This document shows, in pieces, positions 9,347 through 38,630 of a stretch of DNA of 64,000 nt; position 1 is the stretch's first letter, and each line of letters opens with the position of its first letter. The stretch comes from Bacilli bacterium (GTDB taxonomy: Bacteria > Bacillota_I > Bacilli_A > RFN20 > CAG-826): contig JAZLKX010000046.1 of NCBI GenBank assembly GCA_045597865.1, positions 1 to 64,000 on the forward strand. The letters run 5' to 3'. Position numbers and translations under genes: made by a program. Below the pieces are notes generated by a model. The model saw only the letters and a program-made list of their open reading frames with translations. It was not told the origin of the DNA and did no database searches.

Positions 9347-9446
9347 GAGTTAAGATTTTATTTTACGAAAAGAAAGTAAATTTAAAGTAAATTGTTTGTT
9401 TTTAAAAATCAATACATATACTTTTGTGTAACTAAAATGTTTAAAA

Positions 9447-9725
9447 ATGACTATAAAACAAGAACAATTTACAAAAATAATTAAAATTTGCAATAAATTA
9501 TTCTCTGTTTCTAAGCATGATTTAATATATAATAGGAATAGAGAATGTTCTGCAATAAGATATTGTGTTGTTGTTATTATGTCCGAATTAACAACAACTA
9601 AAGAGATTTCTAAACTTCTACATAAAACTCCACAAGGAATTAATTTTATAATTAGAGAATACAAGTCTAATCAAGAAATAGATAATTGGATAAAGGAAAT
9701 TAAAAGCAAACTTCAAGAAGATTAA
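9447..9725 (+). CDS. DnaA C-terminal-like HTH protein
   Basis: LFSVSKHDL...RECSAIRY...TTKEISKLLHKTPQGINFII resembles the DnaA domain IV pattern. Confidence 0.55.
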   Translation: MTIKQEQFTKIIKICNKLFSVSKHDLIYNRNRECSAIRYCVVVIMSELTTTKEISKLLHKTPQGINFIIREYKSNQEIDNWIKEIKSKLQED

Positions 9726-9794
9726 AAGTAAAATATTTTTATAATTATTTATGGTATCGTATATTTGCTCATACTAATTTTAATATTTATTGAT

Positions 9795-10742
9795 ATGAGT
9801 GAATTAAAAGAAATCGTTGTACCTGAAAGTAACAGTTGCAACAGCGGAATGTTTAGTCTTTTAACCGCACTATTAACACAAAAAGGCATCGATCCAAATG
9901 TTTTATTATCTATGCGAAATGGTAATTTTGATGGTAATAATGTAGTATGGGTATTGTTTTTACTTATCCTATTTGGTAGAAATGGTTTTTATGGCAATGA
10001 TGGAAATCTATCTAATTTAATTAATAATGATAGTGGTAGAGAACTATTAATGCAAGCCATAAATGGTAATCAAACAGCTATTTCTCAACTTGCTAGCACA
10101 TTAAATTGTTCTATTAATTCTATTCAAGCAGCATTAGGAAATTTATCAAGTCAAATTCAAAACGTAGGCAATAGTATAGGTATGAGTACCCAACAAGTTA
10201 TTAATGCTATTCTATCAGGTAATGCTAATATAGCTAGTCAATTATGTGGTATTAACAATAATATTACTACTATGGGCTATCAAAACCAATTAGCAAATCA
10301 ACACCAAACCTATCAACTAACCGATAGTATTAATAATGTAGGTACAAGAATGGAGAGAGGGTTTTGCGATACTGCGTATGCAACTCAAACACAAACTTGT
10401 GCTATCCAAAATAGTATTAAAGATAGTGTATCTACAATACTTGATGGGCAAAGACAAGCAGAAATTAGAGAAATGCAAGCGAAAATTGCTAGCCTTCAAG
10501 AAAAGAATAGCCAATATGCAATGCAAATAAATAATGGACAACAATCTGCTTTGTTTGGACAAATGCTACAACAAGCAATAGCACCAATTAATACTGCATT
10601 GTGTACTCTTACAAATGAAGTAAGCACAATTAAAGCTAGTATGCCACCTACTTATCCAGTACAATATCAACCTTTCGTACCTGTTCCTAATGCAGTTGCT
10701 TATCAATATGGAATAGCACCACAAGGTGGATTTTGGAATTAA
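9795..10742 (+). CDS. Membrane-anchored Asn/Gln-rich coiled-coil protein
   Basis: Hydrophobic VVWVLFLLILFG followed by a long heptad region. ATG 9795 preferred because it lies downstream of the TATATTTG -7 box at ~9760. Confidence 0.7.
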   Translation: MSELKEIVVPESNSCNSGMFSLLTALLTQKGIDPNVLLSMRNGNFDGNNVVWVLFLLILFGRNGFYGNDGNLSNLINNDSGRELLMQAINGNQTAISQLASTLNCSINSIQAALGNLSSQIQNVGNSIGMSTQQVINAILSGNANIASQLCGINNNITTMGYQNQLANQHQTYQLTDSINNVGTRMERGFCDTAYATQTQTCAIQNSIKDSVSTILDGQRQAEIREMQAKIASLQEKNSQYAMQINNGQQSALFGQMLQQAIAPINTALCTLTNEVSTIKASMPPTYPVQYQPFVPVPNAVAYQYGIAPQGGFWN

Positions 10743-10758
10743 AAAAGGAGGTGTTATT

Positions 10759-11091
10759 ATGCTACCTTATTATTTTGTGAATCGTAATGGTTCTGCTGTT
10801 ATTGAAAGTTCTAATGTAAGTGTAGAAGACAATAAGGTTGTTTATACATTCCCTAACCACTCTTTTGCTAACAACAATTATAGAGGAGTAATATATGTAA
10901 AACTAAATCAAGATTTGCCTTCTACTGCTTCTGCTACAATGCCTATTGAGTTTTCTACCAACGGAGTTAAACAACCTGTACTAACAAAAAGTACAAGCGG
11001 TGAAACCGAATGGTTAGTTTCTATGTTTCAAGGCGTTGGTTATTATGAGTTTTTCTTTGATAAGCAAACTAATAAACTTCAATTGCTATGA
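10759..11091 (+). CDS. Hypothetical beta-rich protein
   Basis: ATG 10759 preceded by AAGGAGGTG; in an operon with 9795. Confidence 0.7.
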   Translation: MLPYYFVNRNGSAVIESSNVSVEDNKVVYTFPNHSFANNNYRGVIYVKLNQDLPSTASATMPIEFSTNGVKQPVLTKSTSGETEWLVSMFQGVGYYEFFFDKQTNKLQLL

Positions 11092-11528
11092 GAAAGTATT
11101 TATTAGTTTGTGATGATTGTGAAGAAAATCACGAAGAAGAAAAAACTAGATCTTACAATGTGTCAGGTATGCAAGAATACCTTAGTAAATATGGTTGGCA
11201 TTTTTCTCCCAAAGCTGTTGATTATGCCACCTCTAAAATGATTACTAAGGAAGGACCATTAGTACCTATTACACTAGATAAATATAAAAGTATGCTAACT
11301 AAGCATAACGTAAAGATAGATACTAAATATCCATACGATGCTTTGTATATTTTAAATATGGCATTAGCAGACTTTTATGGGTCTAGCATTAAAGACGAAT
11401 TGCATTTGATTTTATTTGTAAAAGATTATTTAGAAGACCCTGACGGTAACGACGAACTACCATTTAAAAGATGGCATTGTTCGGAGTTATCCGAAGGAAA
11501 AACTATTAATTGGCAGCATTTGATTTAA
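11088..11528 (+). CDS. Conserved hypothetical phage protein
   Basis: ATGA overlap; YLSKYGWHFS...YD..YILNM..ADFYGSSI pattern recalled from Bacteroidota phages. Confidence 0.7.
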   Translation: MRKYLLVCDDCEENHEEEKTRSYNVSGMQEYLSKYGWHFSPKAVDYATSKMITKEGPLVPITLDKYKSMLTKHNVKIDTKYPYDALYILNMALADFYGSSIKDELHLILFVKDYLEDPDGNDELPFKRWHCSELSEGKTINWQHLI

Positions 11529-11561
11529 AAAAAAAGGGGAGACACGTCTAGTGCCTCCCCT
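11528..11561. terminator. Terminator hairpin between convergent genes
   Basis: A-run then GGGGAGACAC...GTGCCTCCCC stem. Confidence 0.6.
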
Positions 11562-11567
11562 AATTGT

Positions 11568-11759
11568 TTAATGCTCTTTGTAGAATTTTATTAAATTCTC
11601 CAAATGTTCTTTTGCTTTTTTTAAGAAACTTTTTTCTTCAAAGAAGTTTTCTTTTTCAAAGAATTTTTTATCATTCTTTTGGAGTTTTTCTAAATGCTCC
11701 AAACGGTCCGATATATTCTTTTCTGTTCTTTTTATTTGGTCTTGATTTTCTTTTGTCAT
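11568..11759 (-). CDS. Hypothetical protein
   Basis: ATGA overlap with the upstream gene. Confidence 0.45.
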   Translation of the reverse strand: MTKENQDQIKRTEKNISDRLEHLEKLQKNDKKFFEKENFFEEKSFLKKAKEHLENLIKFYKEH

Positions 11760-12166
11760 AATTCTTTAATTCTAATATTAAACTCGAATAACATCAACTT
11801 TCGTTTTATGATATATTCAGGAGTTATAAACCCCTTAGTATCTTCAACTACAAGTTGATTTTCTTTGTCTATATACACGAAGTCTGCATAATAAGCACAC
11901 TCTCGTTCTAGACATTTTCCCTTTACTATTTTTTCTTTCCCTTTTGGGGTAATGACAACAACGTCATCTTCCTTTTGGGCTGGGATTAAAACGTATTTCT
12001 TTTGGGTTTCTAGACCAGTTATTTCTCCTTTTTCTTGGAGATCTAAAAGGTAAATGTATCGCTTCATTTCTTTCTTTGAAGCGAATGTTTTGCCGTTAAA
12101 TTCACACTTTTTAGCGTGGTACTTAGATTCTCCATCGGCTTTCTTTTTTCTTAAAAAGTTTCTCAT
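11756..12166 (-). CDS. DUF1064-like PD-(D/E)XK nuclease
   Basis: SKYHAKK..FASKKE..RY and YYADFVY...VVEDTKG..TPEY.IKRKLM motifs. Confidence 0.8.
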   Translation of the reverse strand: MRNFLRKKKADGESKYHAKKCEFNGKTFASKKEMKRYIYLLDLQEKGEITGLETQKKYVLIPAQKEDDVVVITPKGKEKIVKGKCLERECAYYADFVYIDKENQLVVEDTKGFITPEYIIKRKLMLFEFNIRIKEL

Positions 12167-12630
12167 TTCCCAGTTGAGCCGTAGCCTCCTTCTCCACGAT
12201 TAGTTTCTAAATTAACTTTCCCTTTCTTTAATTGGATCGGTTCTAACTTAGAAAATATAAGTTGAGCTACTCTATCACCTTCTTTTGGAAGGTAGTTCAC
12301 CAAGTTCTCAAAATTAACAACTCTACCTTCTCTATCAAAGAAGTTACTTGGTTTAAACTTCATAATTAGTTCACCTCTAAAGTTGGAGTCTATTGTTCCT
12401 ACTGAGTTAGCACATACTAACGGATACTTACTAATAGAACTACGAGGTCTAAGCTGTGCTTCGTATCCGTCGGGAAACTCCATTCTGAAACCTAATGAGT
12501 AACAAATATTACCGAACTCATCAAAATAACGCTCTCTAGCGTAACAGTCAAACCCTGCATCTTCAGGGTGAGCTTTAGAGGGCATTTGACCGCCTTCTAA
12601 TAATTCAATTATACAAGGTATTGTATTCAT
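12163..12630 (-). CDS. dut: Trimeric dUTPase
   Basis: Motifs AGFD, RSS, GTIDSNFRGE, DRVAQL, RGEGGYGSTG. Confidence 0.95.
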   Translation of the reverse strand: MNTIPCIIELLEGGQMPSKAHPEDAGFDCYARERYFDEFGNICYSLGFRMEFPDGYEAQLRPRSSISKYPLVCANSVGTIDSNFRGELIMKFKPSNFFDREGRVVNFENLVNYLPKEGDRVAQLIFSKLEPIQLKKGKVNLETNRGEGGYGSTGK

Positions 12631-12679: not shown

Positions 12680-13360
12680 TTATGCTGCGTATAATTCTTG
12701 TTTTAAAATATTAACATCGTTTTCAAACAATTTGACACATAGTTCATAAAGTTCAGGTATCATACCCATAACTTTATCAATATAGTCCATCTTGTTTTTG
12801 AGTTTTGGTTTATGTAAAGTGTTATATCCGTCTAATCTTCTTTGTAAATCACAATGGAATTTTTGCTCAAACTCTTTATATAGGATAGCATATCTTTCAC
12901 TATAATTTTTAGATACACCTTTACGAACGACTCTAGTAATTATTTGTCGTTTATCTGCTAGACTAATATCTTTTACCAAACCGATTATTACGTCTTCTTT
13001 GTAAGTTACTTCTTCTGCAAGTTGTTTGTTTTTAACTTCTAGTTCTTCTTTTTCTTTGTTAAGTCTTCTCATTGTTTCCAATGTTCCTCTTAACAAAATC
13101 TTTGTTTCTTCACTTGCCCCAGGCAGATAAGTGTTAATAAACAAGTCATCGTTTGCTACATATCCACCTGTTTTACGAATTGTTGGTAATACTTCATCGA
13201 ATACCCAACTTTCAAACTTTTGTGCATTTTCTAGTTTAGAAGATACTATTAGTCTATATACATCACCTTCAGGGATAAAAGAAGTTTCAACGTTTTGAAT
13301 TATATCTCTACCATCTTTATATTTACCAGTAACTACCCCTATGTCTATTTTAGACACCAC
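12680..13360 (-). CDS. Bro-N domain antirepressor-like protein, N-terminally truncated
   Basis: FIPEGDVYRLIVSSKL..AQKFESWVFDEVLPTIRKTGGY. In-frame upstream PTKAIREHCK is present but the usual Bro-N start is missing. Confidence 0.8.
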   Translation of the reverse strand: MVSKIDIGVVTGKYKDGRDIIQNVETSFIPEGDVYRLIVSSKLENAQKFESWVFDEVLPTIRKTGGYVANDDLFINTYLPGASEETKILLRGTLETMRRLNKEKEELEVKNKQLAEEVTYKEDVIIGLVKDISLADKRQIITRVVRKGVSKNYSERYAILYKEFEQKFHCDLQRRLDGYNTLHKPKLKNKMDYIDKVMGMIPELYELCVKLFENDVNILKQELYAA

Positions 13361-14174: not shown

Positions 14175-14190
14175 TCTATCATTGTTTTAA

Positions 14191-14216
14191 AGCAGTTTGA
14201 TGCAATCTCCCTGCTG
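14191..14216 (-). repeat. Conserved intergenic hairpin, copy 1
   Basis: + strand AGCAG-TTTGATGCAATCTCC-CTGCT; copy 2 at 29290 has a compensatory stem change. Confidence 0.75.
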
Positions 14217-15653: not shown

Positions 15654-16085
15654 TTAGAAAAGTCTATTTGGGTCTTTTTTTACTTCCTTAATTTTCTTTT
15701 GAAAATTTCTTGCAAAGACCTTATAATATTCATAAATTGATTCACAAATTACTGGATTGTAATAATCCAATAATTTATTTACGTAATCGACGAAGCATTT
15801 TTTTAAAACTTTTTCTGCTCTGTCGTTTAACAAAGATATTCTGGTTAACATATGTCCTAGGTCATAAACCATCGTTTCTAGATAGTCTTTTTCAATAATA
15901 GCCTTTCTTTGGTCTTCATTAAAGATTTCTAATTCATTTTCTTGACCATTAATTATCTTTTTAGCTTCTTCTAAAGAAAAAGCTTGGGCTTCTTTAAAAA
16001 AATAATTTCCTCCTTTTTTAAACAAGCCTATAGATGTATTAAAAATATAATATTTATTGTTCATTTTATTTTTTTTATCTGCCAT
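15654..16085 (-). CDS. Hypothetical protein
   Basis: ORF chain. Confidence 0.6.
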   Translation of the reverse strand: MADKKNKMNNKYYIFNTSIGLFKKGGNYFFKEAQAFSLEEAKKIINGQENELEIFNEDQRKAIIEKDYLETMVYDLGHMLTRISLLNDRAEKVLKKCFVDYVNKLLDYYNPVICESIYEYYKVFARNFQKKIKEVKKDPNRLF

Positions 16086-16752
16086 AATTTAATTCATTAA
16101 TTAAAGGTTTAATTGCTTTTTTCAAATATGCTCCACAGCATTTTGTGTTGTTAAGGTTGCTATGGAAACAAAATTTAGGTTTTGTGTATGCAGTGGCTAT
16201 CCAGCGCAAACATCTTTCGATTGTTTCCAACTCTCTTTGGGTTGGTTCTCTTTTATCAAAATTTCCAATAACACAAATATTTATTGTTTCCGAATTATGA
16301 TTCATAACTCCAGGAATTTGTTTATTTAAATTTTGACAATAATATATTGCTGTATCACATATAATTACGTGATACCCTATACTACTCCAACCGTGATTTG
16401 GATCGGCAGGATTTGTGTGCATAGCTTCTATTTCCTTAATATATTGTTCAGGAGTCCTATTGTAAGGAAGCTCCGAAGCTGTATGGTGAAGCGGAATCCA
16501 ATTAGTCTTTTTCCTAACCTTTTTTTGTGGGATTAATTGACTACGCATATCTACGTAATCTATTAATCCTTTATATACCTTTACTTCTTTCTCTCTTTTT
16601 TTGTGTGCTACATTTGTAAGCACGATAAGAGCAAAAACAACTATTGCTACTATCTTCCACCAATTTTTGTAAATCCACAAGTTCACTGCATTTTTTAAGC
16701 AGCGGAATTTATATTTTAAATGTTCGATATATTTTCTTAATTTTTCTTTCAT
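16075..16752 (-). CDS. N-acetylmuramoyl-L-alanine amidase (Amidase_2/T7 lysozyme-like) with N-terminal TM helix
   Basis: LHHTA, GWSSIGYH, HNSETINIC.IGNFD, H....TKC zinc ligands; WWKIVAIVVFALIVL anchor. Confidence 0.85.
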   Translation of the reverse strand: MKEKLRKYIEHLKYKFRCLKNAVNLWIYKNWWKIVAIVVFALIVLTNVAHKKREKEVKVYKGLIDYVDMRSQLIPQKKVRKKTNWIPLHHTASELPYNRTPEQYIKEIEAMHTNPADPNHGWSSIGYHVIICDTAIYYCQNLNKQIPGVMNHNSETINICVIGNFDKREPTQRELETIERCLRWIATAYTKPKFCFHSNLNNTKCCGAYLKKAIKPLINELNYGR

Positions 16753-17033
16753 TATTCTTTTAGTTTTAAGTACATTGCTGTCATTATTGCGTAATTAGCC
16801 ATATCTAGCAATGTGTCTGTTAATGATTCTTCTTTTACTTGATTTTCTTCCTTGATAAGATTAGAAAATCGATTTACTTTGTCTTTAATTCTCACTTTTG
16901 CAGCGACTAGTCCATCTTCGTCAATGCTGTCGAAGAAACTATTGCCGTAGTCGTGATTTTTAATTTTAAAAGTGTTATGCAGAGTATTTAAAATCTCTGC
17001 ATGAAGGTCTATTATTTTTTCTTCTATTTTCAT
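16752..17033 (-). CDS. DUF1599/Nmad1-like protein
   Basis: KNHDYGNSF...RIKDK.NR...ESLTDTLLDMANYAIM motif. Confidence 0.85.
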   Translation of the reverse strand: MKIEEKIIDLHAEILNTLHNTFKIKNHDYGNSFFDSIDEDGLVAAKVRIKDKVNRFSNLIKEENQVKEESLTDTLLDMANYAIMTAMYLKLKE

Positions 17034-20098: not shown

Positions 20099-20611
20099 TT
20101 AAGGGTTAGTTCGAAGATTTTGAAGTTCATCTTCGACCATATTGATAAAAGTACGAAATTCTTTAGTAGAATAATCTGAAGTTCCGTAATAAAAAACTAT
20201 TTCTTTTTCTTTTTCAGATTTTGTATTAGATATTTTGCACATTCTACCTACGTGGTCATTGCAAAATTCTCTACATTTTTTATCTACTTCTTCAATAGGT
20301 ACAATCTCAGTATCTATATTCTGAAACTCTAAAACAAAATGCTGATAAATTTGCTTTGGAGTACTACCTGTAATGTTAGAAATTTCTTTTATTAAATAAA
20401 AGAGATATTGATTTGATTGCTTGCTTCGTAAAGGTTCTCTTATAGAGATAGAAACATGTTTGTTTGTCATTTGTTCTATGGTTTCTAAACCATTTTCAAT
20501 AAACAAACAAACATATTGTCTTCCGTTGTTATTTTTTCCGTATTTGTATATTTCCGCATTCGTAAGTATCATAGTAAATTGAGTTTGGTTCAAATACTTT
20601 TCCAACGTCAT
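20099..20611 (-). CDS. NinB-like recombination accessory protein
   Basis: RSKQSNQYLFYLIKEI...GTSDYSTKEFRTFI pattern. Confidence 0.55.
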   Translation of the reverse strand: MTLEKYLNQTQFTMILTNAEIYKYGKNNNGRQYVCLFIENGLETIEQMTNKHVSISIREPLRSKQSNQYLFYLIKEISNITGSTPKQIYQHFVLEFQNIDTEIVPIEEVDKKCREFCNDHVGRMCKISNTKSEKEKEIVFYYGTSDYSTKEFRTFINMVEDELQNLRTNP

Positions 20612-20837: not shown

Positions 20838-20879
20838 TTTTTTAGTATTTTTGTGGAATAATATTTGCACAAAAATATC

Positions 20880-29319: not shown

Positions 29320-29499
29320 TTAACTCATTTTAGTTAAGAGATAATTTTCTGTTATTTTATCTCTCAAAAGAATTTCAATCTCTTCTTTTGTAACATTTTT
29401 CTTCAAAAGATACTTTCTCAAATGTTTAAAATTTTCTAAGTCTGAGAAATATCCTATTATTCCTTTTGTGTTTTCTAGTCTATAAATTTGTTCTTTCAT
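29320..29499 (-). CDS. 59-aa hypothetical protein (not in the ORF track)
   Basis: TAATG overlap with the upstream gene; MKEQIYRLENTKG. Confidence 0.5.
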   Translation of the reverse strand: MKEQIYRLENTKGIIGYFSDLENFKHLRKYLLKKNVTKEEIEILLRDKITENYLLTKMS

Positions 29500-30470
29500 T
29501 ATAATTGATAATTAGATTCTATAAAGTTGACCATAGCTGCGTTTTGAGGTAGTATGTTAGGTATCTCCATGCTATCACCTTTGTAAAGGTACGTAGCAAT
29601 GTTATACACGTCCCACATAGAGATATTACCATCACAAACACGTTTCTTCATAACACCTTCTGTAAAGATGTTAAGCTGAGTTTGAGAAAGAGGATAATTA
29701 GAACTGTTGTTTCTAATTTCCTTAATTCTTGTATCGTGTTGTACTCTAGCGCAATGAAGAAGTCCTAGCATTTGGATAAGTTCTTCGTCTGAAAGAAGTT
29801 TAGCCTTCCACGCTTCAATTCGTTTTCTTTCTGTTTCAAGGCTTTCTTCTAGTTTGTCGAACCAACCATCTACGATACCTACAATTTCCTTAGCAGTAGG
29901 GAAAGTATGTCTTTGACGGTCAGTAAATGGATAACCATCTGAATATGTAGCAAGGTAAAATTCCTTGTTACCAAGCATGCACTGATTATGACAAATGATT
30001 ACATTTGTGCCAAGACCAACTTGTATCCCTTTTTGATGGAAGGAAACAGCCAAATTAGTGGTATAATCTGGCGTATCATAATCTGTGATACGAATATTAG
30101 CATACACTCTTCTAAGAATATGTGCTTCTATGGCTTGTCTTCCATATTGCGACTCAATTTGTGGAAGAAGACTTACTCCAGGATTATTCTTGTCGCTATT
30201 GTTAGCAGCAAACAAATCAAAAATTTCAGTGTTCAATCCATGACGAGAAGCAGCTTCTTGTAATTGTTCAAGAAGTTCAAAATTGTAAATACCTTTCAAT
30301 GGATTACCATTAACATCGTCCTCTTTGTGAGTCTTTGCTAACTGTTCCAATGTTAATACTTGCACTTTTTCCTTGTCGAAATCAAGGAATTTAGCTGAGT
30401 TAAAACTTTTCTTTTCTGCTACTTTTTGGATATTAACTTGAGGTTTGTTATTAAGTTTTACTAGTTCCAT
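29499..30470 (-). CDS. DUF932-like protein
   Basis: VSFHQKGIQVGLG.NVIICHNQCML and WDVYN.AT motifs. Confidence 0.7.
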   Translation of the reverse strand: MELVKLNNKPQVNIQKVAEKKSFNSAKFLDFDKEKVQVLTLEQLAKTHKEDDVNGNPLKGIYNFELLEQLQEAASRHGLNTEIFDLFAANNSDKNNPGVSLLPQIESQYGRQAIEAHILRRVYANIRITDYDTPDYTTNLAVSFHQKGIQVGLGTNVIICHNQCMLGNKEFYLATYSDGYPFTDRQRHTFPTAKEIVGIVDGWFDKLEESLETERKRIEAWKAKLLSDEELIQMLGLLHCARVQHDTRIKEIRNNSSNYPLSQTQLNIFTEGVMKKRVCDGNISMWDVYNIATYLYKGDSMEIPNILPQNAAMVNFIESNYQL

Positions 30471-31525: not shown

Positions 31526-32116
31526 TTATTCAGGAAGTGAATTCCCTAATGCTATAATAGCATTTTTTAATTCACTTTTTAGAGTAGTATTTAATTTTGA
31601 ATAAAGTGTTTTTAACTCTGCTTTATTCTTTGCTGTATTAGCAAGCCTTTCATAAGCTTGTTCAGCCGTCTCAGGCACAAGCTCATGTGATTCTTTGTCA
31701 GGATCAGCTTGTTTCATCTCTTCTGTTGGTATCATAAATAATTGGAATAAAGCATATTTTAAAGCTATACTCATAGCTTTATTGCTTGCCTTATCACCAC
31801 TATCCATTCCTTCACCTAATGTTATAACAGAGATATTTGAACCATCTTCTGCATAGAAAGTGAATTTTATTTTCAATAAAGAATAATTAATTACACTTCC
31901 TTTGCTATTAGTTCTTTCATATCTTTGCTGTTCCAATACTTCAGGAGCAACGAATAGCTTATGACACTTCATAGCTGGATTTAACTCGTTCATTACATCG
32001 TCGATGCCTCTAAACATAAATCCTTGCGATTGGTTTTTAGAATTTTTACCAATCGCTGAAACATCTTGCATAACAGCATTAATTGTTTCGAAAATATTTT
32101 TTAATTCTTTTGCCAT
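31526..32116 (-). CDS. ERF-family ssDNA annealing protein
   Basis: IGKNSKN..QGFMFRGIDDV and GEGMDSGDKASNKAMSIALKYAL. Confidence 0.9.
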   Translation of the reverse strand: MAKELKNIFETINAVMQDVSAIGKNSKNQSQGFMFRGIDDVMNELNPAMKCHKLFVAPEVLEQQRYERTNSKGSVINYSLLKIKFTFYAEDGSNISVITLGEGMDSGDKASNKAMSIALKYALFQLFMIPTEEMKQADPDKESHELVPETAEQAYERLANTAKNKAELKTLYSKLNTTLKSELKNAIIALGNSLPE

Positions 32117-32540: not shown

Positions 32541-32556
32541 GAAAATACAAAAAAAA

Positions 32557-32799: not shown

Positions 32800-34077
32800 T
32801 TAAGGTTCAACAAAATATTCTTTATAATTTGTTAGACTAGCGTCAATCCAAACATTTTTCTTGTTAATTGGATTGGCTAGTTTCAATCCTTCAAGACTTT
32901 TACATCTTGACAAACCAACATAAGTTTGTCCTGGAGCAAAAGCAGCAGGATTTAAGAATACTTTATCAAGGGTTAACCCCTGACTTTTGTGTATTGTAAT
33001 AGCCCAAGCCAACTTTACGGGAATTTGTTTAAAACTCCCTATTGTTTCTTGGACTCTTGCTTTTTTCTTGGTCTTATATTGAATTTTAGACCAAGTTTCG
33101 TAACCTAGATTATAATCCTTTCCATTTTCTGCTTTAATGGTAATAGCATCATCTTCTAGGCTTGTAACTAATCCTATTAATCCATTGTAATAAGACTTCC
33201 CATAAAGATCTTCGCCATTTTTGCATATCATTACTTTGGCATTGACTTTTAAATGGAGTTTCTCATCAGTTGGATATTCAGATTCAAGGAATTTGCCACT
33301 TACTTCTGCTAAATATATCTTTTCCTCAGAGTCCAATTTCTGTAACTCTTTGTCATTGATATATTTAGCCCCTTTAAATGGCATATCCTTGTAAGGGGTT
33401 AGAATGGTATATGAATTATCCCATTCCCTTGATACACGACCATTAAGGATTTCTTGGTCGGTATCTGTTAGTGTTCCATTTCTAATATTATTAAGGATAT
33501 TCACGAATGTTATATCTTTCTGACGATAAACTTCGTCTAATTCTACTATATAACATTCAATTCCTGATAATTTTAAAGCATCTAAAAAATAATAACCACA
33601 CTTAGGATAAATGTCTTCTAAGGCAGCTTTGTCGCTAGAGGTAACGACAGGTGGTAGTTGAAATAAATCTCCAATTAGAAGTAATTGGACACCACCGAAA
33701 GGAAGTTTGTTGCCTTTTATGTCCTGAAGAAACTCATGGACACAGAATAGTACATCTATCCTAGTCATACTTATTTCGTCAATAATTAATAACTCTAAAT
33801 TCTTTAAAGACATGAATGTTTCCGTCATATAAACATTGTAAGACTTTGACGGATTATAAACTTCTCTTGGTATTTGGAACGTAGAATGTATGGTTGCACC
33901 ACCACAATTTATGGCAGCAATGCCAGTGGGAGCGCATACATAGTAGATTACTCCTAAATCATTTAATTTTTCTTTTAATTGATTCAGTAAATAAGTTTTA
34001 CCTGTTCCTGCTTTTCCTGTGAGAAATAAATTCTTTTTCTTTAAAATTAAATCAAATGCTAATTCTTGCTTTGTCAT
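32800..34077 (-). CDS. PIF1/RecD-like SF1B helicase
   Basis: GKAGTGKT, APTGIAA, IIDEISM, GDLFQLPPV, AITIHKSQG, YVGLSR. Confidence 0.95.
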   Translation of the reverse strand: MTKQELAFDLILKKKNLFLTGKAGTGKTYLLNQLKEKLNDLGVIYYVCAPTGIAAINCGGATIHSTFQIPREVYNPSKSYNVYMTETFMSLKNLELLIIDEISMTRIDVLFCVHEFLQDIKGNKLPFGGVQLLLIGDLFQLPPVVTSSDKAALEDIYPKCGYYFLDALKLSGIECYIVELDEVYRQKDITFVNILNNIRNGTLTDTDQEILNGRVSREWDNSYTILTPYKDMPFKGAKYINDKELQKLDSEEKIYLAEVSGKFLESEYPTDEKLHLKVNAKVMICKNGEDLYGKSYYNGLIGLVTSLEDDAITIKAENGKDYNLGYETWSKIQYKTKKKARVQETIGSFKQIPVKLAWAITIHKSQGLTLDKVFLNPAAFAPGQTYVGLSRCKSLEGLKLANPINKKNVWIDASLTNYKEYFVEP

Positions 34078-35087
34078 CTCTTCTTTCTAAAATCTACATT
34101 ATCTTCAATTACATAGTAATTGAGTTCACAGATGCGAGAGAAAAATCTTTCACCATATCTTTCTCTAATCTCGTCCATAGACAAGTTAGTTGTGATGATG
34201 GTATAGAACTTTCCTTCTGAGCGATATTGAATAATATCCTCAATCGCCTGTGAATGATGCTTATATTTATTCGTTTTGGTCTCAGCACCTAGATCATCAA
34301 TAAATAGTATTGGAACATTCTTTAATCTATTAATAAAACTACCTTTATCTTTAAAGTCATCTTCATAGTCAGCATTAACTATGTCGATTGCGGTAGTATT
34401 GTCGTTCCAATGAAAATTCCACAATTTCCCTAAAAACTCAAATGGTATAATTGGTTTTGTAGAGTAATGCTGTTGGTAAGTTAGGCTATTGACAGCCTTT
34501 ATAAGAGAAGTCTTACCTACTCCACAATTTCCATACACTAATATTCCCTTGTTTAGATTACCTACTACTTTAGATTTATCAGTAGGGTCAAGAGATAGGA
34601 AGGTGTATGTTTTATCACCAATAGTTTTTGAAGAGCAATAAAAAAACCACAAGATTAGATTATGTATAAAAAATTTCGTAGTTGGACCTAAGTCCTTGAA
34701 AGAAATTTCTTTTCCATAATTATTTTTATAAAATCGGTTAATTGAATTTAAAACTTTTTCGTAGTTAAATTCTGTCTCCGATCTGTAAAAATCTTTATAG
34801 TTTTTATTCGTAGTTAAATTTAATTTTTCAAAATAACCTACTCTATCTGTGCCTTTTAATGCAAGATAGTCATTCATAGGATTATTCTGAAAGCAAAATT
34901 GCATCTCGAATAATGCTCTTTCTTTCGGAGTCAATTTCTTTTTATAATCCTCTTTTAACCTATCAAATTCTAGGTTATAGAGTCTTATATATTCATCTTT
35001 ATTCGTAGATGAATTAAAATGCTCCGCAATTTTTTTTCGTTTTTGGAAATCGTTTTGGGCATCTAAATTTATTTTTTTGATTTCCAT
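34074..35087 (-). CDS. DnaC/IstB-like AAA+ ATPase (helicase loader)
   Basis: GNCGVGKT, LFIDDLGAE, TIITTNL...YGERFFSR. Confidence 0.85.
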   Translation of the reverse strand: MEIKKINLDAQNDFQKRKKIAEHFNSSTNKDEYIRLYNLEFDRLKEDYKKKLTPKERALFEMQFCFQNNPMNDYLALKGTDRVGYFEKLNLTTNKNYKDFYRSETEFNYEKVLNSINRFYKNNYGKEISFKDLGPTTKFFIHNLILWFFYCSSKTIGDKTYTFLSLDPTDKSKVVGNLNKGILVYGNCGVGKTSLIKAVNSLTYQQHYSTKPIIPFEFLGKLWNFHWNDNTTAIDIVNADYEDDFKDKGSFINRLKNVPILFIDDLGAETKTNKYKHHSQAIEDIIQYRSEGKFYTIITTNLSMDEIRERYGERFFSRICELNYYVIEDNVDFRKKR

Positions 35088-36516: not shown

Positions 36517-36577
36517 TTATCCCATCTGCATTTATAGAGGCTTTGGACTCTCACCATAAGGTGGCTGCATTAGATAT
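36517..36577 (-). ncRNA. Twister ribozyme (type P1)
   Basis: AUAUCU^AAUGCAGC-CACC/GGUG-AGAGUCCAAAGCCUCU-AUAAA-UGCAGAUGGGAUA: P2 UGCA/UGCA, T2 GC/GC, T1 UCCA/UGGG, matching the twister consensus as I recall it. Confidence 0.88.
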
Positions 36578-36600
36578 GTTTATTAAACACAAATGTACAG
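36577..36600 (-). promoter_or_regulatory. Leftward promoter with an operator over the start site
   Basis: TACATTTG at 36590-97; TGTTTATTAAACAC at 36577-90. Confidence 0.7.
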
Positions 36601-36664
36601 ATTTTTGTAGAACTACAAAAGTTTTGGTAAGAAATTTGTAGTTATTTCGTAATCTGATATTAAT

Positions 36665-37015
36665 GTGAATGAAAAAATGGAAAAAATATATTTCAAACAG
36701 TGGTATAGTGAACAATTTTATGAGCAATGCCTAAATATAATAGGTTATTTCCCACTGTTGCAATTAACGTTATTATATCGTAAAAACCCACAAATTGAAA
36801 TAATTAATAATATACTATATTTTAAAATCAATGAAGATGATTTATTAGAGCATATATACTATACAAATAGTATTGAAAATGGTAATTGCATTAAAATCAA
36901 TAACAATATTTATTTAAAGATTAATGAAACCTTTTTAATAAATCCTTGTGACGTAGTTTTTGTGTTAAAAAAGACAAAAAAAGGCATAGTTTTGGATTAT
37001 ATTATTCGTAGCTAA
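36665..37015 (+). CDS. Hypothetical protein, isolated on the + strand
   Basis: 116-aa ORF. Confidence 0.5.
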   Translation: MNEKMEKIYFKQWYSEQFYEQCLNIIGYFPLLQLTLLYRKNPQIEIINNILYFKINEDDLLEHIYYTNSIENGNCIKINNNIYLKINETFLINPCDVVFVLKKTKKGIVLDYIIRS

Positions 37016-37078
37016 TTCTTAATCTTTAAATAAAAAATCATCAATTATTTATACTCGCTGATGATGACGAGTCGCTGA

Positions 37079-37459
37079 TTATTTAGATAAACTTTTCAAA
37101 AGTTTTTCGTCTATATCAGCAATTACTTTGTTACCAACACAGAATTTAATTGTCTTGTCTTCTGAGTCTTTGTTTTTTTGGCAAACAATAAAAGAAACTA
37201 GATTTCTTTTTATGTCTTTTAGTTTGCTTGCCTTGTTTGTTGGCATAAAGGTTGCCAACAAATGTTTATCGTCTACATTTTTGACAGGAAGAAATATTTC
37301 CTCCTCCAACACGTTTTCGACTTCTTTTGAAATTAGTGCTCTAATAATTGAGCAACTAAATTTTTCATTAGTTTTTGAGTTTACACCTGAAAAAGGTATA
37401 ATCTCAAAATCTTTAATAAAAGATGTAACGTCTTGACAATATGCTTTACTTGTTATCAT
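37079..37459 (-). CDS. First leftward gene, possible crAss-type ssDNA-binding protein
   Basis: Position next to the divergence point and size; sequence similarity weak. Confidence 0.45.
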   Translation of the reverse strand: MITSKAYCQDVTSFIKDFEIIPFSGVNSKTNEKFSCSIIRALISKEVENVLEEEIFLPVKNVDDKHLLATFMPTNKASKLKDIKRNLVSFIVCQKNKDSEDKTIKFCVGNKVIADIDEKLLKSLSK

Positions 37460-37499
37460 AATAATAAAATTTTGAAGTTTATAATTAAGTTTTATGCTT

Positions 37500-38630
37500 T
37501 TTATTTAACATTGCAAGCATACACAATCAACCTACGAGGGTTACCCCTGTCAGTCAAAAATAAGCCCCCACTTCGTTAATTATTCTCCGCTCATATTTTT
37601 TCAAAAAAAAATTAAAAAGACTTTTTTGAATCCAATAATTTCGGATTAATTAATAGATGAAAAATTTTTCTAAAAAAAATTGAAAAAAAATTTTTAAAAA
37701 AAATAGATATAGACAAAGATTAAAAAATGAGATTTAAGACCATTTTTCTTCGGTTTAAGAAACTTTAATATCAAAGATGATAAAGTCATTGATTTTTTAA
37801 AAATAATGTCTTAGAATTAAAATTTTAAAATTTAATAAAAATAAACTTTGAAGAATAAAACCAAGGAAAGATTTAAAAATCGAAAATTGAGTTTAAAAAA
37901 ATGAAAATGGTTTTAGAAATGATTTAAATGGAATTAACAGGATTTTTAAAGATTGAAAAAATTAATAAAGATTTTAGTTAGTGATTAATAGACACAACAT
38001 ATCGAATTTAGCCATTTTTAAACGATTTAAGAGATTTTAATTTGGAAGTTGAACAATTTATCGACTTTTGAAAAATAATGGCTTAAAACGAAGATTTTGA
38101 AGGTTGATTAAAAATTGAGATTGAGGAAAGAGATTTGAAGTTGGAGTTGAAGGATTTTATTTGGACCTCGAAAAAAAATTTTGGGTTGGGGTTTAAAAGT
38201 TCTTTGATTACTTTCTTACAAGAAAGTAATGCCACGCGGCGAGCGGTTTCTCTTTTTCTTTTTTCTGTTTCTTTGCTTTTTTCTTTTTTTATTTTCTTTT
38301 TTCTTTTCTTTTTTCTTTTATCTTTTTTCTCTCTTTACTTCTTTTTCTTTTATGTTACTTTTCTTTTTCTTCGTTTCTCTCTTTTTTCGTTTTTCTTTTT
38401 TCTTTTCTTTTTTCTTTGTTTTTTTTCTTTTTTCATTTCTTTATCTTTTTTCTTTTTCTCTTTATGAGCTTGTCTAAAGTTAGGATATAGTTTACAAAAC
38501 CTTGTTATAGACCTTGTATTGATAGGTATATACTTTACTTTCTGTTAGGTGTATAAAATACACTTAATGAATAAATAAATTGTTAATTGCATAAAAACAA
38601 GGATTTTTTACATTAGAAAAAAAGTTTAAT
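37500..38630. other. Non-coding divergence region between the two arms
   Basis: Gene orientation switches here; extremely AT-rich; contains a polypyrimidine tract. Confidence 0.65.
38246..38464 (+). repeat. Polypyrimidine low-complexity tract
   Basis: ~220 nt that is almost only T and C. Confidence 0.85.

What the first reader, a model, noticed from the sequence alone, without database searches (positions are those of the whole stretch)
9400..37500. crAss-like virion genes paired with a polymerase-free, lambdoid-style replication module
Seen: the whole segment from the divergence point to the cargo genes is in view. It has no recognisable DNA polymerase, primase, DnaB or ligase, but does have an O-like initiator with iterons, a DnaC-like loader, PIF1, ERF, a NinB-like gene, DUF1064 and dUTPase. 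Known: Crassvirales typically encode PolA or PolB, primase and helicase in this arm. Inference: wholesale module replacement giving a crAss-like phage that depends on the host replisome.
Basis: partly seen in the sequence, partly recalled or inferred. Interest (0 to 1): 0.8.

Follow-up and report, generated by a model that had tools for sequence, protein, structure and literature searches.

The report
Temperate-style crAss-like phage without own replisome
A crAss-like gut phage has swapped its usual self-contained DNA-copying genes for an integrase, a repressor and a small starter kit that must borrow the host cell's replication machinery, which is unusual for a group long thought unable to lie dormant in its host.

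Summary
The window is the first 64 kb of a 91.8-kb contig (C46). C46 and a 5.6-kb contig (C4) appear to close into a ~97-kb crAss-like genome. MCP, TerL, portal, auxiliary capsid, cargo and giant RNA-polymerase genes are Steigviridae-like (TerL 52-62%, MCP 45-54% identity). A quick TerL tree nests the phage among relatives that carry PolA.

Between 9.35 and 38.8 kb almost nothing matches those relatives. Six-frame Pfam searches found no PolA, PolB, protein-primed PolB, DnaE, DnaB, DnaG-type or AEP primase, or ligase on C46 or C4. Stop-codon recoding opens no hidden large ORF.

The segment instead holds:
- a tyrosine integrase and a CI-like repressor;
- a replisome-organizer initiator with internal 11-nt repeats and a DnaA-domain-I tail;
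- a DnaC/DnaI-like loader and a PIF1 helicase;
- ERF, NinB, DUF1064 and dUTPase.

An SSB lies outside the window.

Of 31 near-complete IMG/VR relatives, 30 have PolA and 0 have an integrase. A natural module swap giving a host-replisome-dependent, probably temperate crAss-like phage is the best reading (0.68). An assembly chimera is unlikely but not excluded, because no read-level test of the junctions was possible. Polymerase-free crAss-like phages are already in print, so this is a new variant, not a new kind.

The parts
2..4288 (-). N-terminal part of a giant cargo / RNA-polymerase-subunit-like ORF (cr85_1 gp056-like). It runs off the contig start and appears to continue through a repeat into contig C4.
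   Evidence: tblastn to cr85_1 gp056 residues 96-849. C4 matches gp056 residues 2103-2477. The 141-nt ends are shared.
6311..9283 (-). crAss cargo protein (990 aa). It is the last crAss-like gene before the replaced segment, so it marks the left boundary.
   Evidence: PF25725 crAss_CARG1 9.6e-29. Homologues in cr85_1, G101, G102 and G111.
9765..11761 (+). Small plus-strand island (325, 121, 146 and 65 aa) of unknown function. Two of its genes have homologues in a crAss-like relative.
   Evidence: phrog_16490 1.6e-32, phrog_31654, phrog_38431 4.6e-31. tblastn hits in G111 at 44.8-45.3 and 43.2-43.5 kb.
11756..12166 (-). DUF1064 protein; the matching PHROG is annotated as a Holliday-junction resolvase.
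   Evidence: PF06356 2.1e-17; phrog_190 1.6e-33.
12163..12630 (-). dUTPase
   Evidence: phrog_135 2.1e-37. 30-34% identity to the dUTPases of G111 and G102.
12680..13360 (-). Bro-N / Ant-type anti-repressor. It is a paralogue of the anti-repressor genes in the virion arm.
   Evidence: phrog_130 4.5e-25, PF02498 6.7e-9. A 44-aa stretch is 82% identical to the product of 39290-39982.
16075..16752 (-). N-acetylmuramoyl-L-alanine amidase (endolysin)
   Evidence: PF01510 5.1e-9; phrog_822 and phrog_1493, about 4e-15.
16752..17033 (-). 93-aa protein. It is the only gene of the segment with a homologue in the replication arm of cr85_1 (gp042).
   Evidence: 52% identity over 82 aa, 3.9e-25; phrog_1485 2.3e-28.
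20099..20611 (-). NinB/Orf-like recombination mediator
   Evidence: phrog_72 2.7e-11. No Pfam hit at E 0.01 or better.
20871..21157 (.). Intergenic region just downstream of the integrase gene, with 10-nt T-rich tandem repeats. It is a candidate attP with arm-type sites (inferred).
   Evidence: TRF arrays at 21011-21043, 21051-21092 and 21140-21159; sequence read. No attB match in the other MAG contigs.
21158..22378 (-). Tyrosine integrase (406 aa) with an arm-binding domain, a SAM-like domain and a catalytic domain.
   Evidence: PF00589 4.6e-13, PF13102 8.9e-12, PF17293 1e-7, phrog_1 3.2e-38. The R / H-x-x-R / H / Y motif residues are present by eye (motif recalled). Best phage hits come from Bacteroidota phages.
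22384..23292 (-). CI-like repressor candidate (302 aa): an N-terminal HTH and a conserved C-terminal domain that resembles the S24/LexA family.
   Evidence: phrog_4 'transcriptional repressor' 4.8e-8. HTH_3 22.3 bits and Peptidase_S24 16.3 bits, both below the curated cut-offs. In two homologues the C-terminal domain is invariant and the HTH is divergent. The AF2 model was not informative.
23449..23805 (+). 118-aa ORF transcribed divergently from the repressor. Its position is that of a Cro-like gene, but its function is unknown.
   Evidence: No PHROG or Pfam hit. The gene order is int <- repressor <- | -> 118 aa -> initiator.
23792..24694 (+). Replication initiator / replisome organizer: an N-terminal DnaD/O-like DNA-binding domain, a repeat-encoded linker and a C-terminal DnaA-domain-I-like module.
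   Evidence: phrog_2514 2.5e-22 and phrog_345 'O-like' 1.4e-4. PF11638 DnaA_N 1.9e-13. PDB 4tps DnaA domain I 1.5e-7. None of the 34 phage records with homologues is a Crassvirales record.
24114..24235 (.). Putative origin inside the initiator gene: 5-6 copies of an 11-nt unit (CTAACAAACAA type) spaced 11 nt apart, then an AT-rich tract.
   Evidence: TRF period 11, 5.0-5.5 copies. The repeat finder family D1 with spacing 11, 11, 11, 11. Sequence. A period that is not a multiple of 3 argues for a DNA-level repeat.
29499..30470 (-). 323-aa protein, possibly DUF932/DUF3871-like; not a polymerase or primase by any search made.
   Evidence: No PHROG or Pfam hit. The nearest protein-atlas clusters are DUF3871/DUF932 at score 0.98, but recognition was low, so this is a lead only.
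31526..32116 (-). ERF single-strand annealing protein
   Evidence: PF04404 8.6e-25; phrog_155 1.2e-32.
32800..34077 (-). PIF1/Dda-like SF1B helicase
   Evidence: PF05970 9.2e-33; phrog_325 2.5e-69. Best phage hits are at 34-42% identity, and none of the 25 listed is in Crassvirales.
34074..35087 (-). DnaC/DnaI-family AAA+ helicase loader
   Evidence: phrog_50 7.9e-22. PDB DnaI 4m4w 7e-9 and DnaC 6qel 3.8e-6. Best phage hits are Porphyromonas phage005 and Bacteroides phage Versailles.
37460..38840 (.). Divergence region between the two arms (right boundary of the replaced segment). It contains a ~250-nt polypyrimidine tract at 38236-38482.
   Evidence: ORF layout. The cumulative GC-skew minimum falls at 36-38 kb. 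Repeats. The first gene shared with relatives on the right is 38841-39047.
39290..44149 (+). Start of the virion arm. It holds three anti-repressor genes (39290-39982, 42335-43033, 43379-44149) and three tRNA genes.
   Evidence: phrog_130 1.9e-67 and 5.2e-71; PF08346 AntA 1e-26; tRNAs.
53180..54742 (+). crAss-type major capsid protein
   Evidence: phrog_11589 1.3e-88. 47-51% identity to Steigviridae MCPs. The best non-self hits listed from the 5.8-billion-protein set are at 45-54% identity.
57203..58327 (+). crAss001-type auxiliary capsid protein
   Evidence: PF25650 crAss_AuxCP 6.4e-38.

Best explanation
This is a real, naturally mosaic phage genome of about 97 kb. A lineage inside the Steigviridae branch of Crassvirales kept the crAss-type virion, packaging, cargo and giant virion-RNA-polymerase genes. 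Its autonomous replication arm (PolA, DnaG-type primase, DnaB, nucleotide-metabolism genes) is absent. In its place sits an early region of the kind carried by temperate siphophages of Bacteroidota.

Proposed working (inferred):
1. The integrase and the CI-like repressor, opposed by four Ant/Bro/AntA anti-repressors, allow integration and a lysis-lysogeny switch.
2. The initiator binds the 11-nt repeats that lie inside its own gene.
3. Its DnaA-domain-I-like tail and the DnaC/DnaI-type loader capture the host DnaB helicase.
4. Host primase and Pol III do the synthesis.
5. The phage SSB, PIF1 helicase, ERF, NinB and DUF1064 support recombination-dependent replication and concatemer formation for the crAss-type terminase.

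Shown: gene content, absences, phylogenetic position, rarity among relatives. Inferred: host dependence, origin function, lysogeny, the direction of the swap.
For: Virion side is Steigviridae-like:
- MCP 47-51%, TerL 52.7-62% and portal 43-48% identity to Steigviridae and IMG/VR relatives.
- crAss_CARG1 and crAss_AuxCP Pfam domains are present.

Nested position: in the TerL quick tree the phage sits inside the 40-row clade that holds all five Steigviridae references (SH-aLRT 100). It is sister to nine IMG/VR rows (SH-aLRT 95).

Census: of 31 IMG/VR relatives of 85 kb or more, 30 have PolA and 0 have a Phage_integrase domain.

Absences: none of the eleven replication families searched hits C46 or C4. 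No cr85_1 replication protein matches. There is no recoding signal.

Module content.

Donor type: the integrase and the loader both have their best annotated phage match in Porphyromonas phage phage005. Its early region reads integrase, repressors, recombinase, initiator, DnaC-like loader, resolvase.

Against a chimera:
- C46 and C4 share both 141-nt ends, which fits a closed circle with no host flank.
- Genes are tightly packed at both boundaries.
- The tetranucleotide signature of the module correlates 0.85 with the virion arm. It correlates 0.39-0.72 with 14 other contigs of the bin.
- An anti-repressor in the module shares an 82%-identical 44-aa stretch with one in the virion arm.
- crAss-associated genes lie inside the segment.
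- In 3 of 3 public gut runs from three studies, 84-97% identical contig pieces of both the module and the start of the virion arm occur at matching depth: about 24-28 in X1 and about 3-5 in X2 and X3.
Against: - No contig listed bridges 36.2-37.5 kb. The source sample's reads were not available, since the best holder had only 12% of the words. Both junctions therefore rest on a single assembly.
- No close relative with the same architecture was found in IMG/VR, JGI metagenomes or GTDB genomes.
- No attB, host flank or integrated copy was found.
- The repressor call is weak: both Pfam domains score below their cut-offs and the AF2 model has pLDDT 48.
- About half of the ORFs in the segment have no family hit, so an unrecognised primase or polymerase cannot be excluded.
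- The interior of repeat R, which is needed to close the genome, is not in the assembly.
- The tree is a quick search with SH-aLRT support only, and this phage's branch is long at 0.56.
Confidence: 0.68

Rival explanations
1. Assembly chimera: a crAss-like phage and an unrelated temperate phage from the same sample were wrongly joined, so the pairing of virion genes with this module does not exist in nature.
For: - The genome comes from a single metagenome bin, and no second assembly shows the same architecture.
- No listed public contig bridges 36.2-37.5 kb.
- Gene order in the virion arm is also rearranged relative to relatives.
- The contig is binned with what looks like a Bacillota genome, which carries a PolC-like ORF. 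That shows the binning is loose.
Against: - A chimera would need two misjoins that place 28 kb exactly where the replication arm belongs and in the right orientation, while the genome still closes through C4.
- No crAss replication genes are left over on any other contig of the bin.
- The module's oligonucleotide signature is closer to the rest of C46 (0.81-0.85) than to any of 14 other contigs.
- An Ant paralogue is shared between the two arms.
- crAss-associated genes lie at 9.8-11.5 and 16.8 kb.
- Both parts co-occur at matched depth in 3 of 3 independent runs.
Confidence: 0.1
2. The phage is still self-sufficient. It encodes a polymerase and/or primase of a family that the searches cannot recognise, either among the ORFans of the segment (for example the 246-aa and 323-aa proteins) or in the giant ORFs or the missing repeat.
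For: - Many ORFs have no hit. Among the ten largest ORFs of 9.7-35.1 kb, 2 have no PHROG hit and 3 have no Pfam hit. Most of the smaller ones also have none.
- The 3163-aa and 1429-aa ORFs have no Pfam domain.
- A related complete genome, G111, also lacks any PolA or PolB hit yet keeps primase and DnaB. Polymerase detection in this clade may therefore be imperfect.
Against: - The largest unassigned ORF in the segment is 323 aa, and the atlas points it to DUF932/DUF3871.
- No ORF of 250 aa or more appears under TAG or TGA recoding.
- The giant ORFs are homologous to the cargo and RNA-polymerase proteins of relatives.
- A DnaC/DnaI-type loader without a phage DnaB makes sense mainly if the host helicase is used.
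Confidence: 0.12
3. The lysogeny genes are not the phage's own lifestyle module. Either the int / repressor / 118-aa / initiator block (21.2-24.7 kb) is a small integrative element or satellite-like cassette riding in the phage genome, or the phage persists as a plasmid-like episome using the iteron initiator rather than integrating.
For: - The order int, repressor, divergent small gene, iteron-bearing initiator resembles the left end of phage-inducible islands (recalled, not tested).
- The integrase and repressor homologues appear together on two small contigs of 5,169 and 3,116 bp, inferred from equal contig lengths.
- The assembly shows a closed episomal form and no host junction.
- The prototypic crAssphage is reported to be a phage-plasmid (PMC10983915, passages read).
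Against: - No partition genes were seen among the family hits.
- The integrase has all three domains, and its catalytic residues look intact by eye.
- Four anti-repressor genes are spread over both arms, which fits a phage-wide switch.
- Without this initiator the phage would have no replication initiator at all.
Confidence: 0.1

Closest known systems
Steigviridae (Crassvirales, 'beta' group): PhiCrAss001/Kehishuvirus, cr85_1 (Kahnovirus), and IMG/VR relatives G101 and G102
   Same: - MCP, TerL, portal, auxiliary capsid, tail tubular/stabilisation, cargo and giant RNA-polymerase genes are homologous.
- The genome has two divergent arms and is about 97 kb.
- TerL nests in this family's clade.
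   Different: - The replication arm is absent: no PolA, DnaG-type primase, DnaB, Sak4, UDG, RNR, ThyX or PDDEXK.
- It has an integrase and a CI-like repressor. 0 of 31 relatives have an integrase. Papers on isolates state that no lysogeny genes exist (PMC6235969 and PMC10354031, passages read).
- The TerL-portal block and the cargo block are rearranged.
Epsilon-group crAss-like phages (Yutin et al. 2021, PMC7886860; crAssE-Sib, PMC11054128)
   Same: - These are crAss-like phages reported to lack a DNA polymerase.
- Some carry a repressor and BRO/KilAC anti-repressors, and a temperate lifestyle has been proposed for them.
   Different: - Epsilon phages keep a DNA primase, and the record seen is about 151 kb.
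- The paper searched for integrases, but the passages I read describe none.
- This phage's TerL sits in the Steigviridae clade, not with that group. No epsilon TerL was in my tree, so this rests on the 52-62% identities to the beta group.
Early regions of temperate Bacteroidota siphophages, e.g. Porphyromonas phage phage005 (PP754928.1)
   Same: - It gives the best annotated phage hit for both the integrase (32% over full length, 2e-54) and the DnaC-like loader.
- Its kit is similar: integrase, repressor, recombinase, initiator, DnaC-like loader, Holliday-junction resolvase.
   Different: - Identities are low (29-32%), so it is a relative of the donor type, not the donor.
- In phage005 the early genes form one rightward operon. 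Here the loader, helicase and ERF operon runs on the opposite strand toward the initiator.
- phage005 is a 48.7-kb phage with no crAss-type virion genes annotated in the stretch seen.
Lambda O/P replication module with ninR genes
   Same: - The initiator carries its origin repeats inside its own gene, followed by an AT-rich tract.
- There is a separate helicase loader and no phage helicase, primase or polymerase.
- NinB is present.
- int and a repressor lie next to a divergent switch.
   Different: - The loader is an AAA+ DnaC/DnaI protein, not lambda P.
- The initiator scores 2.5e-22 as DnaD-like but only 1.4e-4 as O-like, and it carries a DnaA_N tail that lambda O lacks.
- The repeats are 11 nt long rather than about 19 nt (the lambda figure is recalled).
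IMG/VR record G111 (L054): a complete Steigviridae-like genome with no PolA or PolB hit
   Same: It belongs to the same TerL neighbourhood, in the group adjacent to this phage in the tree. No DNA polymerase was detected.
   Different: G111 keeps primase, DnaB, UDG, PDDEXK, HKD nuclease and a resolvase, and it has no integrase. It shows a single-gene loss or an undetected gene, not a module swap.
Carjivirus communis (prototypic crAssphage) as a phage-plasmid (PMC10983915)
   Same: It is a crAss-like phage with a proposed non-lytic persistence mode based on an acquired replication gene.
   Different: That phage uses RepL, keeps its own polymerase-type replication block, and shows no integrase or integration. 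This phage has an integrase and no polymerase.

Membership tests
Crassvirales / Steigviridae | crAss-type major capsid protein, large terminase and portal that group with the family | tested here: met
   MCP phrog_11589 1.3e-88 and 47-51% identity. TerL 52-62% identity. Portal 43-48% identity. In the TerL quick tree the phage lies inside the clade of five Steigviridae references.
Crassvirales / Steigviridae | Structural-block signature genes: tail tubular, tail stabilisation, auxiliary capsid and cargo proteins, and the giant virion RNA polymerase | tested here: met
   Homologues of cr85_1 gp060, gp059, gp058, gp056, gp054 and gp053. crAss_AuxCP 6.4e-38 and crAss_CARG1 9.6e-29. The RNA-polymerase catalytic motif was not inspected.
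Crassvirales / Steigviridae | Replication block with DnaG-family primase, DnaB and SNF2 helicases, an AAA+ ATPase and a PolA or PolB (core set per PMC7886860) | tested here: not met
   No Pfam hit for PolA, PolB, DnaB_C, Toprim_2 or Zn_ribbon_DnaG on C46 or C4. No tblastn hit for cr85_1 PolA, primase or DnaB. SNF2 and the crAss AAA+ ATPase were not searched by family.
Crassvirales / Steigviridae | Formal ICTV demarcation (proteome-wide shared-orthologue clustering) | not tested
   Only single-gene identities and one quick TerL tree were computed.
Lambda-type O/P replication module | Initiator homologous to lambda O, with iterons inside its gene | tested here: inconclusive
   The O-like PHROG scores only 1.4e-4 against 2.5e-22 for the DnaD-like family. 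An 11-nt repeat array is present inside the gene. Binding was not tested.
Lambda-type O/P replication module | Lambda P-type helicase loader | tested here: not met
   The loader belongs to the DnaC/DnaI AAA+ family (phrog_50 7.9e-22; PDB DnaI 7e-9).
Replisome-organizer plus DnaC/DnaI-loader module of temperate phages | DnaD-like organizer, an AAA+ DnaC/DnaI loader, and no phage-encoded replicative helicase, primase or polymerase | tested here: met
   for the two proteins. for the absences. The two genes are 9.4 kb apart and on opposite strands, unlike the adjacent pair in phage005.
Tyrosine recombinase (phage integrase) | Catalytic domain with the R, H-x-x-R, H and Y residues, plus a core-binding domain | tested here: met
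   PF00589 (49.7 bits, cut-off 27.1), PF13102 and PF17293 are all above their cut-offs. The residues were seen by eye in the translation; the motif definition is recalled.
CI/LexA-type (S24) repressor | HTH DNA-binding domain plus an S24 autocleavage domain with a Ser/Lys dyad | tested here: inconclusive
   HTH_3 scores 22.3 bits (cut-off 23) and S24 scores 16.3 bits (cut-off 23.3). phrog_4 4.8e-8. No PDB sequence hit. The AF2 model has pLDDT below 50 over residues 73-255. A conserved 'CSRELEP...GD...KMIKR' stretch, seen by eye, fits the pattern.
Epsilon-group crAss-like phages (polymerase-free) | No DNA polymerase but a (divergent) DNA primase retained; large genome | tested here: not met
   No polymerase, which matches, but also no primase. 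The genome is about 97 kb, and TerL is closest to the beta group.

The most novel reading that the evidence does not exclude
This is the first integrative, truly temperate member of the Steigviridae lineage. It still packages and injects its own giant RNA polymerase. It changed lifestyle in one step by exchanging its autonomous replisome for the lysogeny-plus-host-dependent-replication cassette of a Bacteroidota temperate phage. If so, lytic-to-temperate switching in Crassvirales can happen by whole-arm exchange. A CI-type repressor would then have to silence early transcription driven by an injected phage polymerase. I know of no described case of that (this last point is recalled and was not searched).
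Probability: 0.4. Interest if true: 0.8.

Novelty: new variant of a known kind. Interest (0 to 1): 0.62.

Why it matters
crAss-like phages are the most abundant phages of the human gut. How they persist has been an open question for a decade. Papers on isolates state that they have no integrase, no lysogeny module and no known prophage form (PMC6235969, PMC10354031, PMC10983915; passages read).

A genome that joins a Steigviridae virion and injected RNA polymerase to an integrase, a repressor, four anti-repressors and a host-dependent replication kit would matter in three ways:
- It would show that the replication and lifestyle arm of these phages can be exchanged as a unit with ordinary temperate phages.
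- It would give a natural test case for whether the large crAss replication block is dispensable.
- It would give a concrete candidate for true lysogeny in this family.

The practical limit is that this is one metagenomic assembly, with no host, no integrated copy and no close relatives in the collections searched.

Tried and rejected
Recoding. Reading TAG or TGA as sense adds no ORF of 250 aa or more in 9.3-39.5 kb. Stop usage is TAA 65, TGA 16, TAG 5 in ORFs of 80 aa or more. Rejected.

Polymerase beyond the window. The remaining 27.8 kb of C46 and all of C4 hold only virion genes, cargo and RNA-polymerase ORFs and an SSB.

Bacteroides phage BS-TP1. It surfaced as a PIF1 hit. It has its own polymerase, primase and DnaB, and nothing crAss-like was annotated in the stretch seen. 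Not relevant.

Search for the same architecture elsewhere.
- Single-protein scans with the loader and the cargo protein in IMG/VR found nothing.
- The loader and the MCP in JGI metagenomes found nothing.
- The integrase and the MCP in GTDB genomes found nothing.
- The MCP in 100 relatives of the bin found nothing.
- A TerL scan of IMG/VR gave one locus at 59% identity.
- These scans find close relatives only, so this is no proof of absence.

Host link. No match of 20 nt or more between C46 and the other contigs rises above chance. Only weak protein matches to other contigs were found. No attB and no CRISPR spacer.

Public reads. The best run held only 12% of the sampled words. Laying X1-X3 on 26.0-45.9 kb showed related pieces, but no listed contig bridges 36.2-37.5 kb. 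The gaps in cover are not evidence.

Structure of the repressor. The AF2 model from a 3-row alignment has mean pLDDT 48.4 and is unusable over residues 73-255. No fold search was run on it.

Protein atlas. The 246-aa ORF gave no usable hit.

Careful TerL tree. It did not finish in two runs, so only the quick tree is used.

Literature. A review (PMC8776839, passage and reference list read) cites Fujimoto et al. 2020 for 'a temperate crAss-like phage'. That paper is not held, so I could not see what it shows, and it may bear on novelty. Supplements of all papers were closed; Yutin's supplementary gene tables may list the polymerase-free environmental phages. Searches made.

Not used: complex prediction, fold search, the search of protein representatives and the RNA tools.

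Full report
Where the finding sits. The window is bases 1-64000 of contig C46 (91,795 bp, GC 0.31) of a 58-contig, 1.74-Mb metagenome bin. C46 has no exact terminal repeat. Contig C4 (5,572 bp) shares its first 141 nt with C46 1-141 and its last 141 nt with C46 91655-91795, in the same orientation. That pattern is expected if a circular genome contains a two-copy repeat R whose interior is missing from the bin, giving the circle R-C46-R-C4. C4 is filled by minus-strand ORFs. One matches the C-terminal part of cr85_1 gp056 (residues 2103-2477), while C46 2-4288 matches gp056 residues 96-849. The genome is therefore about 97 kb plus two copies of R. Both contig breaks lie inside giant cargo or RNA-polymerase ORFs, and no host DNA flanks the phage.

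The virion side is crAss-like. The MCP (53180-54742) hits the crAss MCP PHROG at 1.3e-88. It is 47-51% identical to Steigviridae MCPs such as cr85_1, cr112_1 and the PhiCrAssBcn isolates. TerL (C46:66437-68677) is 52-56% identical to Steigviridae in INPHARED and at most 62% to 80 IMG/VR loci. Portal, tail tubular, stabilisation, cargo and the two large RNA-polymerase-related ORFs all have homologues in cr85_1, G101, G102 and G111. Pfam finds crAss_CARG1 in the 990-aa protein and crAss_AuxCP at 57203-58327. A quick IQ-TREE TerL tree had 44 rows: this phage, 9 named references and 34 IMG/VR rows. Support is SH-aLRT only, and the careful search never finished. The tree places the phage inside the 40-row clade with all five Steigviridae references (support 100), as sister to a 9-row IMG/VR group (support 95). 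Its branch is long (0.56), so the exact position is provisional.

What is missing. I searched the whole bin in six frames with Pfam models for PolA, PolB, DnaB_C, Toprim_2, Prim-Pol, DNA_pol3_alpha, DNA_pol_B_2, Zn_ribbon_DnaG, DNA_primase_S, ATP-ligase and NAD-ligase. Every hit lay on other contigs (C3, C8, C17, C25, C40, C52, C57) or there was none. No hit fell on C46 or C4. As a positive control, the same PolA model found a polymerase in 30 of 31 related IMG/VR records of 85 kb or more. tblastn with 23 cr85_1 proteins found the cargo and RNA-polymerase homologues on C46 and C4, but no PolA, primase, DnaB, Sak4, ThyX, RNR, UDG, PDDEXK or HKD there. C46 proteins compared with the full genomes of cr85_1, G101, G102 and G111 give almost no match for anything between 9350 and 38840. 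The exceptions are 16752-17033 (cr85_1 gp042, 52% identity), 9765-10742 and 11088-11528 (G111), and a 30-34% dUTPase match. Treating TAG or TGA as sense creates no new ORF of 250 aa or more in this stretch. The giant ORFs carry no polymerase domain. The only extra domain is ART-PolyVal in the C4 ORF.

What is there instead. Reading from the divergence region leftward on the minus strand:
- a 126-aa ORF and small ORFs;
- a DnaC/DnaI-family loader (34074-35087) and a PIF1/Dda-like helicase (32800-34077);
- ERF (31526-32116);
- a 323-aa DUF932/DUF3871-like candidate, then a run of small ORFans.

Next comes a compact switch-like block:
- the integrase (21158-22378, minus strand) and a CI-like repressor candidate (22384-23292, minus strand);
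- a 156-nt control region;
- on the plus strand, a 118-aa ORF and the initiator (23792-24694).

Further left on the minus strand are a 113-aa ORF, NinB (20099-20611), ORFans, an amidase endolysin (16075-16752), a Bro/Ant anti-repressor (12680-13360), dUTPase and DUF1064. Three more anti-repressor genes open the virion arm. An SSB lies at C46:77307-77594.

The initiator has three parts:
- Residues 8-113 match DnaD-like replisome organizers of small temperate phages. None of the 34 matching phage records is a Crassvirales record.
- Residues ~108-132 are encoded by 5-6 copies of an 11-nt unit spaced exactly 11 nt apart, followed by an AT-rich tract. A period that is not a multiple of three suggests a DNA-level element, as with the lambda origin inside O. 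That comparison is recalled.
- Residues 226-292 align to DnaA domain I (Pfam 1.9e-13; PDB 4tps 1.5e-7). In DnaA this domain contacts the replicative helicase (textbook knowledge).

Where the module came from. The integrase's best annotated phage match is Porphyromonas phage phage005 (32% over the full length, 2e-54). The remaining named hosts are mostly Bacteroidota: by first word of the organism name, Cellulophaga 17, Porphyromonas 13, Flavobacterium 6, Bacteroides 6, Phocaeicola 1, against Lactococcus 5. One protein-database homologue is named as coming from a Bacteroidales MAG. The same phage005 gives the best loader match. Its early region has the same kit: integrase, repressors, recombinase, initiator, DnaC-like loader, resolvase. 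The bin, in contrast, carries a PolC-like 1494-aa ORF and a DnaE. Its genus has genomes of roughly 1 Mb. No sequence link to C46 was found. I conclude that the phage is probably mis-binned and infects a Bacteroidota host. That conclusion is an inference.

How unusual it is. Among the 31 IMG/VR relatives of 85 kb or more, 30 have PolA and none has a Phage_integrase domain. The one without PolA (G111) also lacks a PolB hit but keeps primase, DnaB, UDG, PDDEXK and HKD. In the 5.8-billion-protein collection, the best 120 listed MCP hits other than the phage's own cluster are at 45-54% identity. The integrase and repressor each have only two close homologues (91% and 51%; 86% and 58%). These apparently lie on the same two small contigs, judged by equal contig lengths. 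In print:
[quoted passage not shown] They name primase, DnaB, SNF2 and an AAA+ ATPase as the conserved replication core (PMC7886860, passages).
- Epsilon phages have a repressor and anti-repressors, and two incomplete Parabacteroides prophages are related to them (PMC11054128, passages).
- Papers on Steigviridae isolates report no integrase or lysogeny module (PMC6235969, PMC10354031, passages).
- A review cites Fujimoto et al. 2020 for a temperate crAss-like phage. I could not read that paper.

Polymerase loss alone is therefore known. Loss of the whole replication core, together with gain of an integrase-repressor-initiator-loader set in a Steigviridae-type phage, did not turn up in my literature searches.

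Is it an assembly artefact? Evidence against:
- The genome closes through C4.
- Two precisely placed misjoins would be needed.
- No leftover crAss replication genes exist on any other contig of the bin.
- The module's tetranucleotide profile correlates 0.85 and 0.81 with the virion arm and the giant ORFs. It correlates 0.39-0.72 with 14 other contigs. For scale, the two halves of the virion arm correlate 0.90 and the two halves of the module 0.82.
- A Bro/Ant gene in the module shares an 82%-identical 44-aa stretch with one in the virion arm.
- crAss-associated genes lie inside the segment.
- In all 3 public gut runs that held part of 32.0-41.9 kb (three studies, 9-12% of words), contig pieces 84-97% identical to both the module (29.3-36.2 kb) and the start of the virion arm (37.5-45.2 kb) occur at similar depth within each run.

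Evidence for, or left open:
- No listed contig bridges 36.2-37.5 kb.
- The source reads were not available.
- The runs were chosen with words from both sides of the junction, so co-occurrence is partly by construction.

I put the chimera at about 0.1.

Verdict. The system works like a lambda-style or replisome-organizer module that depends on the host replisome. By homology, however, it belongs to the DnaD-like organizer plus DnaC/DnaI loader type, not to lambda O/P. It is a new variant of known kinds: Crassvirales virion genes joined to the early region of a temperate phage. It is interesting mainly for the question of crAss lifestyle. Its limits are that it is a single metagenomic assembly with no identified host.

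Noticed in passing
window 1-141 and C46:91655-91795; contig C4 (locus L121): C4 and C46 share both 141-nt ends in the same orientation. This implies an exact repeat of more than 282 nt that lies in frame inside two different giant ORFs (cargo gp056-like and RNA-polymerase gp053-like). The C4 ORF carries an ART-PolyVal ADP-ribosyltransferase domain (1.1e-11).
   Followed up: partly
C46:77307-77594 (L001:15307-15594), plus strand: A phage SSB (PF00436, 2.4e-17) sits at the end of the virion arm, next to the RNA-polymerase genes and far from the other replication genes.
   Followed up: no
G000 contigs C57:31576-32403 and C25:52472-53245: The bin has a PolC-like 1494-aa ORF and a DnaE, which fits Bacillota. 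Genomes of its genus are around 1 Mb, whereas this bin is 1.74 Mb with 5.4% contamination. The phage's integrase relatives are from Bacteroidota, so C46 is probably mis-binned.
   Followed up: partly
G000 contig C52 (55.6, 97.7 and 106.6 kb); C17:3219-3752; C5: C52 (GC 0.39; tetranucleotide r 0.39 to C46) holds a PolB, a DnaB-like gene and an ATP-dependent ligase. C17 has a protein-primed PolB hit. The 3.5-kb C5 has a dUTPase and a DnaC-like gene. These are probably further mobile elements or foreign contigs in the bin.
   Followed up: no
IMG/VR record G111 (loci L054, L097-L101): This is a complete (terminal-repeat) 96-kb Steigviridae-like genome. It has primase, DnaB, UDG, PDDEXK and HKD nuclease but no PolA or PolB hit by Pfam or tblastn. 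It is either a second kind of polymerase loss in this clade or an undetected polymerase.
   Followed up: partly
window 43222-43309: ARAGORN calls a tRNA of undetermined identity with a four-base anticodon (gcaa). It lies directly after tRNA-Leu(taa).
   Followed up: no
window 38236-38482: A ~250-nt polypyrimidine (T/C) tract lies in the divergence region between the two arms, near the cumulative GC-skew minimum. The 110-aa ORF listed over it is probably spurious.
   Followed up: no
window 19948-19983, 20067-20102, 32520-32555; 14185-14216 and 29284-29315; 51979-52000 and 58392-58413: Three kinds of repeated intergenic motif were seen. A palindromic TGTTTATTAAACA core occurs three times in the early region. 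A 32-nt element is 88% conserved at two sites. An exact 22-nt motif, TTTATTTTAAAAATTAAGGTAT, lies upstream of two virion-gene blocks, and a looser 67-nt match between 44581-44647 and 58389-58455 (75% identical) contains it. These are candidate operators or promoters.
   Followed up: no
window 61400-64000 and C46:64001-77700; window 1-9283: Gene order differs from cr85_1, G101 and G102. The TerL-portal block lies downstream of the tail-stabilisation gene rather than near the start of the virion arm. The cargo block (gp058-gp056-like) is inverted onto the minus strand.
   Followed up: partly
window 44650-51891: Four consecutive large ORFs (641, 610, 413 and 441 aa) in the virion arm have no PHROG or Pfam hit. 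Only the 413-aa ORF shows any match to the compared crAss genomes, a short and weak one to cr85_1 (39% over 74 aa, 4.9e-7). They may be lineage-specific tail or receptor-binding proteins.
   Followed up: no
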